Positions 30,826 through 32,545 of a stretch of DNA of 64,000 nucleotides are shown here, in pieces. Position 1 is the first letter of the stretch. Each line of letters begins with the position of its first letter. This DNA comes from an uncultured Veillonellaceae bacterium (GTDB lineage: Bacteria; Bacillota; Negativicutes; JARBTT01): NCBI GenBank assembly GCA_963805085.1, contig CAWDTA010000002.1:1440001-1504000 (forward strand), read 5' to 3'. The notes below the pieces were generated by a model. It saw only the letters and a program-made list of their open reading frames with translations, had not been told where the DNA came from and made no database searches. A program made the position numbers and the translations under genes.

Positions 30826-30944
30826 CCTGCTAATAAAAATCAATAGTTTTTCAATAAAAATTTCTGAATATATTTTATTGAAAAAAGGGCATGGCTAAGC
30901 AGTCCGGTTAAATTATAAAACCGGATTTTAGATGTTTATTGCAA

Positions 30945-32147
30945 TTAACCTGCTATTGTCTCTTTTACTCGTGTATAATAAATTCTTAGAAATTTATTCA
31001 ACCCTGCAATTTTAGCAACTTTTTTAGGTTTACCTTCTGCCTCTTTCTTAAGAATATATCTGTATACAGCATTATCATAATCTGGTTTGACTGTCTTTAA
31101 ACACTTCATAACTTCATATCCTGTTTTACGTAAAATAGACGAGCCACGCTTAGAAATTTTTCTTTTTGTTGCTGTAAATCGCCCGGATTCATAAGGTGGT
31201 GTATCAAGACCTGCATATGCAATTAAAGAGCTCCCGTTATGAAACCTACGTACATCTCCGATTTCGGCAATCAAACGTAGTGCTAATTTGTCACCGACAC
31301 CCGGCATTGCACGAACAATGCTGTATTCTTTCAAACTCTTTGCTAACTCATTCATTCGTGCTAAAATATTGTGTAAGGACTTCTCTGTTTGGAGAAGTAC
31401 CTTGACAGCTTCTTGTACGAGCATTTTGGTCGATGGCGTACTGGAAGGCAATGTTGGGATACCTGTTTAGGCTAAAGCATATATTTGATGTGCTTTTTTC
31501 TCATTAGCTTGGTATCCCTTTTTACTTGCCCATTTCACATACGTATCTACAAAATGTTTTTCTCCTTTGTTAGTGATTATGTCATAATGCCAGAATCTAA
31601 ACGCAAAATCTCCGATTTTATTATGAGAAAAATCATCTGAATGACTTTTAAGTAAGTCCTTGATTTCTGGCATCGTACGATCAAGCATACAAGTAAGAGT
31701 AATTTTAGACTTTACATACATTCCCATGAATTGAATGTACTGACGCCCCAGTATTTTTAATTCATCATATATTTTTTCATCAGGACGGTAATCGGTTAAA
31801 TCAAACCAATGGTCAATACCGAAGTTAGCAATTCTGCCAGCATCTATTTTATCCGTCTTTGCTTTACGCAATGAAACATTGATATATTTTTTCATAACTA
31901 AAGGATTAACTACCGAAACAAAGATACCGTTTTCTTTCATAAACGCTAGAATGGGCAGATGATAATAGCCAGTTGCCTCCAATACAACACGTGTTTCCTC
32001 GTTAAATTGCTTAATTGTTTTTACCAGTGCTGTTAAATCTTCTACCGTGTGTGTAATTTCAAATGGTCGCTGAATAATTTCACCATAAGGCTTTAAAATA
32101 CAAACGGTACTTTTACCTTTTGAAACGTCAATTCCTACACTGATCAA
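30945..32147 (-). pseudogene. IS110 transposase/recombinase with one in-frame TAA at 31467-31469
   Basis: GIDVSK, EATG, KTDKIDA; C-terminal PGVG, AEIGD..RF, YAGL.P..ESG; the two ORFs are in the same frame. Confidence 0.92.
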
Positions 32148-32174
32148 GGGGATATACCTCCTAATATAATCTTT

Positions 32175-32400
32175 GTAAAATGGTATCCAATCCTACTTAT
32201 TATTCTTCATTTTAGTTCGTTACACGAAAGCCAGAAAATGGTTTCAACCTGCTTAATCGAAGATTTATAATAAGAGGATGGCAGACTGTTTTCGTCACGG
32301 ATACGAAATCCAAAGGAACGTACGTCTGACCATATACTCCACTTATTATAATAAAAATAAGTGCGAACAACTAAAAATTTTCATTTAGTGTTCACACTTT
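32175..32400 (-). ncRNA. Putative IS110 bridge RNA
   Basis: Two stem-enclosed internal loops whose sequences match the target (aaaggaacgt, ttttcgtcac) and the donor junction (aacctgct). Confidence 0.75.
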
Positions 32401-32545
32401 TATAGTACTAAAGGAACGTCCCCGCCTGCCACTTGCCCTCAAAGAAACGCTTGTTTACTTTATGAATAAAATAGAATATAATAAGCATATACTAAATAAA
32501 CCAAAAACGCACTGCGTAAACAGGACGTTTCGGTTGAATACGAGG

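What the first reader, a model, noticed from the sequence alone, without database searches (positions are those of the whole stretch)
30826..32409. IS110 inserted precisely into the array repeat
Left flank ...ggtgacagaaa (30825) and right flank aaaggaacgtcccc (32410) rejoin into an intact repeat end (4 A in the target, 6 A after insertion, giving an AA core). Circularisation would join TTGATT (30838-30843, minus) to TACTAT (32402-32407, minus) with a 16-nt spacer, the junction promoter typical of IS110 circles. This parallels IS1111-attC and IS621-REP targeting: a parasite specialised on this repeat family. The transposase is inactivated by a single in-frame TAA.
Basis: partly seen in the sequence, partly recalled or inferred. 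Interest (0 to 1): 0.8.

Follow-up and report, generated by a model that had tools for sequence, protein, structure and literature searches.

The report
Guide-RNA insertion sequence in a repeat
A 1.6-kb IS110-type jumping gene, now disabled by a stop codon, sits exactly inside one copy of a short repeat, and its own guide RNA matches that repeat, which makes it a clear but expected example of RNA-guided insertion.

Summary
Window 30826-32409 (minus strand) is a 1584-bp IS110-family element. It has DEDD_Tnp_IS110 and Transposase_20 domains and one in-frame TAA at 31467-31469. It sits in one copy of a repeat with a 2-bp AA duplication. Removing it restores the 23-mer found intact at 16355.

The 262-nt left end folds as a bridge RNA (20 relatives; 17 of 51 pairs compensatory). 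The 5' guide of its target loop (32312-32321) equals the right flank at 10 of 10 positions. The 3' guide (32288-32298) matches the left flank with a one-base bulge. Across 30 related copies, guides track their own flanks (0 of 10,000 permutations reach the observed score). The split promoter (TTGAYT, 16 nt, TACTAT) is kept in 27 of 27 loci.

The target is a REP-like 23-mer, not merely "the array repeat". It caps 17 array repeats and also flanks three copies of a RAYT-like gene as inverted pairs. Sibling copies in the same genome carry other guides and sit in a second REP-like family.

Relatives in four public runs read CAA where this copy reads TAA.

Verdict: a new member of a known kind (IS621/ISPpu10-like REP targeting). 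Interest is moderate. The surrounding cassette array is the stranger object.

The parts
30690..30825 (+). Left part of the interrupted array repeat. It holds a terminator-like hairpin (30727-30767) and a promoter-like TTGGCA-18-GAGAAT (30754-30783). It ends with the left half of the REP-like 23-mer (GGTGACAGAAA, 30815-30825).
   Evidence: 121 nt at 90.9% identity to the copy at 28225; hairpin and promoter-like site; sequence.
30824..30825 (.). One of the two copies of the AA (TT on the transposase strand) core dinucleotide. Its exact position within the A-run is ambiguous.
   Evidence: 6 A around the element against 4 bases (AAAA or AAGA) in intact copies.
30826..32409 (-). IS110-family insertion sequence, 1584 bp, without terminal inverted repeats. 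The left end starts AGTACTAT and the right end finishes TTAGCAGG.
   Evidence: a second full copy (92%) and two end fragments in the same genome stop at these ends; the ends are conserved in relatives.
30826..30944 (-). Right non-coding end (119 nt). It holds the -35 half-promoter TTGATT (30838-30843) 12 nt from the end, and the donor left half TTAGCAGG.
30945..32147 (-). Transposase frame of 400 codons, interrupted by TAA at 31467-31469 (Gln CAA in relatives). It keeps the GID, EATG, KTDKID and SKRG motifs.
32204..32409 (-). Predicted bridge RNA in the left end. It holds the -10 TACTAT (32402-32407), a 5' stem-loop (32359-32399), the target-binding stem-loop (32264-32351) and the donor-binding stem-loop (32204-32263).
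   Evidence: -56.9 kcal/mol, z -3.84; consensus of 20 sequences, 51 pairs, 17 with compensatory changes.
32312..32321 (-). Left target guide ACGUUCCUUU, identical to the transposase-strand flank next to the left end (+ strand AAAGGAACGT at 32410-32419).
   Evidence: 10 of 11 scored positions, 10 of 10 for the 10-mer.
32288..32298 (-). Right target guide GUGACGAAAAC, same sense as the + strand left flank GTGACAGAAA (consensus GTGACGGAAAA). It pairs with a one-base bulge or with 1-2 mismatches.
   Evidence: 8 of 11.
32246..32256 (-). Left donor guide UUAAGCAGGUU, matching the right end of the element (TTAGCAGG) plus the TT core.
32210..32219 (-). Right donor guide CGAACUAAAA, complementary to the core plus the first bases of the left end (TT-AGT). 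U changes to C in relatives whose left end starts with G instead of A.
   Evidence: 6 sequences have A with ACT/ATT, 14 have G with ACC.
32410..32440 (+). Right part of the interrupted repeat: the right half of the REP-like 23-mer (AAAGGAACGTCCCC) and a degenerate CCTGYC tail.
28335..28357 (+). Example of an intact target 23-mer. Others start at 4024, 11822, 16355, 32927, 35697 and 38584.

Best explanation
An IS110-group insertion sequence integrated as a circle into the loop region of a REP-like 23-mer (GGTGACRGAA|AA|GGAACGTCCCC) that caps one unit of a large same-strand repeat array. Integration was directed by a bridge RNA encoded in the element's own 262-nt left end.

The two strands of the first internal loop of that RNA pair with the two sides of the target, on opposite DNA strands. 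The second internal loop pairs with the element's own ends. Both overlap a TT/AA core, which ends up on both sides of the insert. In the circle, a -35 box from the right end and a -10 box from the left end come 16 nt apart, where they could drive the RNA.

This copy has since lost its transposase to a CAA-to-TAA change. No intact copy was found in this 83%-complete assembly, so here it is a relic.

Shown: family, boundaries, core duplication, stop codon, conserved RNA fold, and guide-flank agreement with its covariation across relatives.

Inferred: the circle, promoter activity, RNA expression and the recombination chemistry. All of these rest on analogy with IS621.
For: Family. PF01548 and PF02371 match. 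NF033542 'IS110 family RNA-guided transposase' scores 205 bits against a cut-off of 140. IS621 is the best solved relative, E 4.7e-18.

Boundaries. A second full copy and two end fragments in the same genome stop at the same ends. The ends are conserved in 27 loci.

RNA. [quoted passage not shown] It has 51 pairs, 17 with compensatory changes.

Guides.
- The window copy matches its flanks at 10 and 8 of 11 positions.
- Over 30 loci the left guide matches its own flank at a mean of 8.1 of 11, against 6.2 for other loci's flanks.
- The right guide matches at 7.4 against 6.3.
- A permutation over 19 guide groups gave 285 observed against 230 +/- 7.1 (maximum 260). 0 of 10,000 permutations reached the observed value.

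Natural retargeting. The sibling copies L002 and L003 carry other guides and sit in a second REP-like family that fits those guides. The relatives L013 and L014 (89% and 87% protein identity) carry a guide one base away from the window's. They sit in AAAGAAACGTCCCC sites in two other genomes.

Donor loop. The first base of the left end covaries with the right donor guide.

Promoter. Both halves are kept at fixed distances in 27 of 27 loci.
Against: - No RNA or read data from the source organism. No public run holds more than 27% of the sampled words, so neither the RNA, the circle nor excision was seen.
- The right guide does not pair contiguously with this target (a one-base bulge or 1-2 mismatches). 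Several Oscillibacter copies pair contiguously.
- Some loci match their guides poorly: L017 and L024 left guide 4 of 11, L023 and L034 right guide 5 of 11.
- All flanks and guides share T-runs. This inflates raw match counts, which is why a cross-pair control was used.
- Only 1 of 18 type-A array copies is occupied. The related genome G004 has the repeat family, but its one full copy lies elsewhere.
Confidence: 0.87

Rival explanations
1. The insertion is a one-off. The element is not a habitual parasite of the array or of this repeat family. It landed at a sequence that happened to fit a drifting guide.
For: - 1 of 18 type-A copies in the array is occupied.
- Only 3 intact sites in the genome match GTGACNGAAAAGGAACGT exactly.
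- G004 carries the same repeat family, but its only full copy is outside it.
- The guide differs from the sibling's by only 3 bases.
Against: - Two relatives in two other genomes (L013, L014) sit in the same kind of site, with a guide one base away.
- The two other copies in this genome sit in a second REP-like family that fits their guides. Repeat targeting therefore recurs in this clade.
Confidence: 0.2
2. The TAA is an assembly or sequencing error, or a minority variant, and the element is active in the organism.
For: It is a single base difference. All four public runs with related copies read CAA. All catalytic-motif regions are otherwise intact.
Against: Those runs hold relatives at about 90-95% identity, not this strain. 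The other full copy in the genome is more heavily broken, with two ORF pieces of 149 and 168 aa, which fits decay. No source reads were available.
Confidence: 0.12
3. Target choice is made by the protein, or by a DNA hairpin of the repeat, rather than by RNA pairing. The guide-like matches would be by-products of the element copying flank sequence.
For: ISPpu10 is reported to need a target DNA stem-loop in addition to RNA pairing (abstract of bioRxiv 10.64898/2026.03.19.712850). The target is weakly palindromic.
Against: - The guide segments lie 88-122 nt inside the element, on the two sides of a conserved hairpin. One has the sense of the flank and the other the antisense, as in IS621.
- Guide-flank covariation holds across 19 guide groups.
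- Hairpin energies of the target are not distinguishable from shuffles in 4 of 6 folds.
Confidence: 0.05

Closest known systems
IS621 (E. coli; IS110 group) and its bridge RNA
   Same: - Two-domain DEDD + Tnp recombinase.
- Left end longer than the right end.
- Left-end RNA with a 5' stem-loop, then a target loop, then a donor loop.
- The 5' strand of each loop has the sense of the left DNA half and the 3' strand is antisense to the right half, overlapping a 2-nt core.
- Discontiguous pairing on a right guide.
- Promoter split across the circle junction.
- REP sequences as natural targets.
(Passages of PMC11208160 read; own.)
   Different: - Only distant in sequence (phmmer E 4.7e-18 in two stretches).
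- Core is TT rather than CT.
- The right target guide is about 10 nt rather than 4.
- The host is a low-GC lineage whose IS relatives are Clostridia and Negativicutes.
- The target repeat is a different sequence family.
- This copy is a pseudogene.
ISPpu10 / ISPpu9 / ISPa11 type REP-targeting IS110 elements of Pseudomonas
   Same: Insertion into multiple copies of one conserved intergenic repeat that is linked to RAYT-type genes. Target choice is made by the bridge RNA (abstract of bioRxiv 10.64898/2026.03.19.712850; PMC11208160 passages).
   Different: A requirement for a target hairpin was not testable here, and the target's hairpin is weak. The ISPpu10 bridge RNA is reported to lack the 5' stem-loop, which this element has.
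IS1111-group elements that target integron attC sites (IS1111-attC)
   Same: An IS110-family element lodged in the repeat that punctuates a gene-cassette array.
   Different: IS1111-group elements carry the guide RNA in the right end and have long subterminal inverted repeats (PMC11208160). Here the RNA is in the left end, and no inverted repeat is evident at the ends. The array has no integron integrase nearby, and its repeat does not look like attC.
CazIS110-1 of Caloranaerobacter azorensis
   Same: An IS110 element from a clostridial host with a bridge RNA (abstract only).
   Different: Its sequence was not compared here. Its copy-out and direct-transfer pathways cannot be judged from this locus.

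Membership tests
IS110 family, IS110 group | [quoted passage not shown] | tested here: met
   2.6e-35, covering profile positions 1-155 of 155.
IS110 family, IS110 group | C-terminal Tnp domain with a conserved serine (PF02371) | tested here: met
   3.1e-19. SKRG aligns with the SKAG of IS621. That this serine is catalytic is recalled, not tested.
IS110 family, IS110 group | Left non-coding end longer than the right; no long subterminal inverted repeats | tested here: met
   262 nt against 119 nt. The ends AGTACTAT... and ...TTAGCAGG show no inverted repeat when read. No repeat-finding tool was run on the ends.
IS110 family, IS110 group | Short core present in donor and target, flanking the insert on both sides | tested here: met
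   2-bp AA/TT duplication. The position within the run is ambiguous.
IS110 family, IS110 group | Left-end bridge RNA with two internal loops | tested here: met
   51 pairs, 17 compensatory, 20 sequences. No Rfam family matched.
IS110 family, IS110 group | Loop strands complementary to target and donor | tested here: met
   (target, with permutation control). (donor).
IS110 family, IS110 group | Circular intermediate with a junction promoter driving the RNA | not testable with these tools
   Only the sequence halves and their conservation were seen. No reads of the source were available.
REP / RAYT system (for the target) | Repeat flanks a RAYT gene as an inverted pair | tested here: met
   3 of 3 gene copies have a minus-strand copy 5' and a plus-strand copy 3'. 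A 75% identical orthologue in G042 abuts the motif.
REP / RAYT system (for the target) | The gene is a REP-associated tyrosine transposase | tested here: inconclusive
   PF01797 scores 3e-14. NF047646 REP_Tyr_transpos is the best NCBIfam hit, but at 75.6 bits it is below its 80-bit cut-off.
REP / RAYT system (for the target) | Over-represented short sequence dispersed through the genome | tested here: met
   26 copies at 5 or fewer mismatches, against 0 for the reversed control. However, 17 are confined to one array, and whether the copies are extragenic was not checked.
REP / RAYT system (for the target) | Palindromic, hairpin-forming | tested here: inconclusive
   A 4-bp GACG/CGTC stem plus flanking pairs, -1.9 to -5.8 kcal/mol. 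The z-score is below -2 in only 2 of 6 folds.
Integron / attC (considered for the array) | Adjacent IntI-type tyrosine recombinase | tested here: not met
   3 PF00589 matches in the genome, the nearest on C2 at 942668, more than 430 kb from the array. The assembly is 83% complete.

The most novel reading that the evidence does not exclude
The insertion sequence may be a marker of a larger unknown. REP-like hairpins tied to an expanded set of RAYT-like HUH genes (24 Y1_Tnp matches) form the 3' cap of a portable terminator-promoter module. That module punctuates an array of more than 50 units on one strand, made of accessory-gene cassettes (GNATs, DJ-1, HAD, unknowns), with no integrase nearby. 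This would be an integron-like cassette system run by single-strand HUH enzymes. Within it, IS110 lineages keep pace with the host's REP families by retuning their bridge-RNA guides: two guide sets for two REP families in one genome.
Probability: 0.15. Interest if true: 0.8.

Novelty: new member of a known kind. Interest (0 to 1): 0.4.

Why it matters
The locus is a clean natural case of bridge-RNA retargeting. Copies that are 92-94% identical carry different guide pairs, and each sits in the repeat family that its guides spell. It extends REP-type targeting by IS110 elements, which is documented in Proteobacteria, to a low-GC lineage whose IS relatives are in Clostridia.

It also identifies the 3' cap of the array repeat as a RAYT-linked, REP-like sequence. 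That is a concrete lead for how the surrounding cassette array may be built.

For tool builders, this clade (TT core, roughly 10 + 10 nt target guides, intact orthologues available) is one more characterisable bridge recombinase. None of this overturns current understanding.

Tried and rejected
- Rfam gave no family at gathering scores over the whole window. With E up to 10 on 30700-32500 it gave only chance-level matches.
- No tRNA in the window. An apparent tRNA-like end at the last repeat was not confirmed.
- Orthologous empty site: the unique flanks were searched in G001 and G004. Only repeat copies matched, so no empty site was recovered. A contig of run X5 joins 30803 to 32410 through 21 nt that complete an intact repeat (table 5c). 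It cannot be told apart from another repeat copy.
- Public runs: no run holds more than 27% of the sampled words, and all are contigs. Circle junctions, excision, expression and the source's reading of the TAA could not be assessed.
- A 33-nt match to the left end inside the G004 array (L011) is low-complexity sequence, not a relic.
- A first fuzzy regex scan missed known copies. It was replaced by a Hamming scan.
- An ECF-sigma promoter reading of GGAAC...GTC, and an attC-like reading of the repeat, were considered from the sequence and dropped for lack of consistent spacing or structure. Neither was formally tested.
- The genes next to the L013 and L014 insertions are not RAYT-like on reading their translations. 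No family search was run on them.
- The plasmid search gave only generic 'IS110 family transposase' names, with a best identity of 58%.
- Literature searches of the held library: 'bridge RNA' + 'RAYT' found 0 papers. 'IS110' + 'repetitive extragenic palindromic' + 'Clostridia' found 4 papers, 2 listed, and neither of those two is about IS110 targeting. This library is partial and supplements were closed. Supplementary tables of PMC11208160 that list natural IS110 targets may already include this clade.

Full report
THE OBSERVATION

The left flank ends ...GGTGACAGAAA at 30825, the element runs 30826-32409, and the right flank starts AAAGGAACGTCCCC at 32410.

A search with the rejoined 23-mer found 7 intact copies in the window at 3 or fewer mismatches. 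All are on the + strand, against 0 expected in 100 shuffles. The copy at 16355-16377 is identical to the rejoined sequence. Intact copies have four bases between GG and GG at that place (AAAA in five, AAGA in two), while the interrupted copy has 3 + 3 A. Two bases (AA, TT on the transposase strand) were therefore duplicated.

On the minus strand a 400-codon frame (32147 to 30945) has a single internal TAA at 31467-31469. Its two parts match PF01548 (2.6e-35) and PF02371 (3.1e-19).

An intact orthologue, 94% identical in DNA, lies in another genome (L005). It reads Gln at the stop position. It scores 205 bits on NCBIfam NF033542 'IS110 family RNA-guided transposase' against a cut-off of 140. 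It finds IS621 as its best solved relative.

BOUNDARIES AND OTHER COPIES

The window's own genome (4.21 Mb, 5 contigs, 83% complete) holds three further pieces:
- a second full copy at 92% identity (L002), broken into pieces;
- a 214-nt left-end fragment (L003);
- a 74-nt right-end fragment (L004).

All stop at the same ends, AGTACTAT... and ...TTAGCAGG. A scan of one genome per species returned 32 related loci. The closest are a Selenomonadaceae MAG (89% protein identity) and a Proteocatella MAG (87%). There are eleven copies in Oscillibacter valericigenes (about 62%). The end sequences are conserved throughout.

THE BRIDGE RNA

The 262-nt left end folds well below shuffled controls (-56.9 kcal/mol, z -3.84). 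A consensus fold of 20 non-redundant left ends gives the following, in order:
- a 5' stem-loop;
- a long stem with an internal loop and a capping hairpin;
- a second stem with an internal loop.

It has 51 pairs, 17 of which keep pairing through changes on both sides. This is the order and shape described for IS621: 5' stem-loop, target-binding loop, donor-binding loop (PMC11208160, passages read).

In the window copy the 5' strand of the first loop is ACGUUCCUUU (window 32312-32321, minus strand). It equals the flank next to the left end at 10 of 10 bases. The 3' strand, GUGACGAAAAC (32288-32298), has the sense of the + strand left flank (GTGACAGAAA; family consensus GTGACGGAAAA). It therefore pairs with the opposite DNA strand, with a one-base bulge or 1-2 mismatches.

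In the second loop, UUAAGCAGGUU matches the right end plus core. CGAACUAAAA is complementary to the core plus the first bases of the left end. Relatives whose left end starts with G instead of A have C instead of U at the matching guide position (6 sequences against 14). Because the two states follow the phylogeny, this is probably one evolutionary event.

IS THE MATCH MORE THAN CHANCE?

All flanks and guides share T-runs, so I scored each guide against its own flank and against the flanks of loci with other guides:

| Guide | Own flank (mean of 11) | n | Other loci's flanks | n |
|---|---|---|---|---|
| Left | 8.1 | 30 | 6.2 | 772 |
| Right | 7.4 | 27 | 6.3 | 680 |

I then shuffled flanks among one representative of each of the 19 guide groups, taking the first member listed. 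For Oscillibacter that member is its worst-matching copy. The observed total was 285. The permuted mean was 230 +/- 7.1 with a maximum of 260, and 0 of 10,000 permutations reached the observed value.

There are misses: L017 and L024 score 4 of 11 on the left, and L023 and L034 score 5 of 11 on the right. Three loci lacked a usable right flank.

THE JUNCTION PROMOTER

In all 27 loci with both ends (15 distinct end pairs; L036 was skipped because its right end was not found), two features hold:
- a TTGACT (9 pairs) or TTGATT (6 pairs) lies 12 nt from the right end;
- a TACTAT (11 pairs), TACTGT (3) or TACGAT (1) starts 2 nt into the left end.

With a 2-nt core the spacer is 16 nt. Activity was not tested.

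WHAT THE TARGET IS

The repeat is about 115 nt of conserved sequence. It holds a terminator-like hairpin and a promoter-like TTGGCA-18-GAGAAT. It is followed by one of at least two alternative 3' caps.

blastn with one copy gave 70 rows in the genome. Of these, 57 lie in C2:1,382,324-1,610,767, and 56 of those are on the + strand.

The element sits in the 'type A' cap, the 23-mer GGTGACGGAAAAGGAACGTCCCC. At 5 or fewer mismatches this 23-mer occurs 26 times in the genome, against 0 for the reversed control:
- 17 in the array, all on the + strand, not counting the interrupted copy;
- 3 elsewhere;
- 6 as inverted pairs that bracket three copies of a 246-residue gene, one of them frameshifted.

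That gene matches Pfam Y1_Tnp (3e-14). Its best NCBIfam hit is 'REP-associated tyrosine transposase', at 75.6 bits, just under the 80-bit cut-off. A 75% identical orthologue in the Proteocatella MAG also abuts the motif.

The 14-mer AARGRAACGTCCCC occurs 9, 4, 2 and 6 times in four genomes, and 0 times in every reversed control. It was not found in G001, which is 84% complete.

The palindrome is weak: a GACG/CGTC stem, -1.9 to -5.8 kcal/mol, with z below -2 in 2 of 6 folds. I therefore call the target REP-like and RAYT-linked, not a proven REP. Bertels et al. report RAYT Group 1 in Clostridia with modest repeat numbers (PMC5581495, passages read).

L002 and the G004 copy L005 carry ACGGUUCUUU and GUGACAAAAAC. 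The fragment L003 carries a near variant, CCGGUUCUGU and GUGAGACAAAC. The window's genome holds 11 copies of a second palindromic repeat, consensus AGACAAGGTGACGGTTCTTTTTGTCTT. Three of these lie within 1.5 kb of other Y1_Tnp genes.

The fragment L003 abuts one of these copies. L002's right end abuts the right half of another, and the complete repeat lies 180 bp beyond its left end because the flank is directly duplicated.

The other copies are therefore not in 'unrelated' targets, and they are not in the same one either. Each guide set spells its own REP-like family. L013 and L014, whose left guide differs from the window's by one base, sit in AAAGAAACGTCCCC sites. L005 in G004 fits its guides only partly (9 and 7 of 11), and its site is not obviously a repeat.

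STATE OF THE ELEMENT

Contigs of four public runs (groundwater, soil and root metagenomes and one labelled organism) carry relatives at roughly 90-95% identity. All four read G at 31469, which gives CAA. They are not the source strain, so an assembly error in the window cannot be excluded. The second copy is more decayed. The other seven PF01548 matches in the genome were not examined, and none of them matched this element at the DNA level.

COMPARISON AND NOVELTY

This locus works like IS621 and the REP-targeting Pseudomonas elements. It meets every sequence-level criterion of the IS110 group that I could test. The circle and the RNA itself were not testable.

It differs in core (TT), in guide length (about 10 + 10 nt), in host lineage and in target family. 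It is not of the IS1111-attC kind, because the RNA lies in the left end and no integron integrase is near.

In the held library, no paper combines 'bridge RNA' with 'RAYT'. The two listed papers that combine IS110, REP and Clostridia are not about targeting. The supplementary target tables of the 2024 paper were not visible and may cover this clade.

VERDICT

A new member of a known kind, of moderate interest. The surrounding array and its RAYT link deserve their own study.

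Noticed in passing
window 1-38613 (genome C2:1,382,324-1,610,767): Large same-strand array. 57 of 70 blastn rows for the ~115-nt repeat lie in this 230-kb stretch, 56 of them on the + strand, and about 26 are in the window. The repeats separate one- to few-gene cassettes: four GNATs (one fused to a HAD domain), DJ-1/PfpI, a CDP-alcohol transferase, a PDZ protein and two proteins with no Pfam match. No tyrosine recombinase lies within 430 kb. The same repeat family forms arrays in G004 and occurs in G001.
   Followed up: partly
window 14618, 19908, 23880, 25668, 29041, 34660 (and six more in the genome): An alternative 'type B' 3' cap of the repeat (about 65 nt, starting GGCGAAGTGGCGGAGGTAG, with an internal GTCTT/AAGAC hairpin and ending ...CCGTCCCC). 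There are about 12 copies and no Rfam family matches. It could be a structured leader RNA or another REP type.
   Followed up: partly
genome C2:1948648-1949388, C2:1951296-1952036, C2:~2044100-2044890: Three copies (one frameshifted) of a 246-aa Y1_Tnp / RAYT-like gene, each bracketed by inverted copies of the target 23-mer. The 3' copy overlaps the stop codon. The genome has 24 Y1_Tnp matches in all. On C2, those below 0.82 Mb are on the minus strand and those above 1.59 Mb are on the plus strand.
   Followed up: partly
genome, 11 sites (e.g. C2:538536, C2:1953646, C4:179084, C1:315321, C2:2070021): A second palindromic REP-like family (AGACAAGGTGACGGTTCTTTTTGTCTT). Three copies lie within 1.5 kb of other Y1_Tnp genes. 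It is the target of the sibling IS copies L002 and L003.
   Followed up: partly
L002 about 1322-1500 and 3089-3270: The second IS copy is flanked on both sides by a ~180-bp direct duplication of host sequence with a few mismatches. Its left end therefore no longer abuts the left half of its target. The origin is unexplained; tandem duplication followed by precise excision is one possibility.
   Followed up: no
L007 (G001), L009 (G027), L012 (G004) around position 1500: Perfect palindromes whose right arm is the last ~19 nt of the IS right end plus 3-7 nt of what is flank in the window (...TTTTTATTAGCAGGTTTCTGT). They occur in three other genomes without any IS. They may be terminators ancestral to the right end, or relics derived from it.
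   Followed up: no
window 32450-32750: A ~300-nt element immediately right of the insertion. It holds a 29-codon hydrophobic ORF on the minus strand (32549-32635) behind a strong ribosome-binding site, and a 13-bp hairpin (32660-32689). More than 15 copies at 70-88% identity occur in G004, and some in G001. It has no Pfam match. It resembles a type I toxin module, but this was not tested.
   Followed up: partly
window 16372-16416 and the tails of other type A caps: Short degenerate tandem units (GTCCCCACCT / CCTGTCY) follow the 23-mer in variable number. The same kind of tail (TAGTGTCC, AGTGTCTC) follows it next to the RAYT-like genes and in the Selenomonadaceae MAG.
   Followed up: no
window 41084-62419: Two very long ORFs (2155 and 4953 aa) directly after the array end. 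They were not analysed.
   Followed up: no
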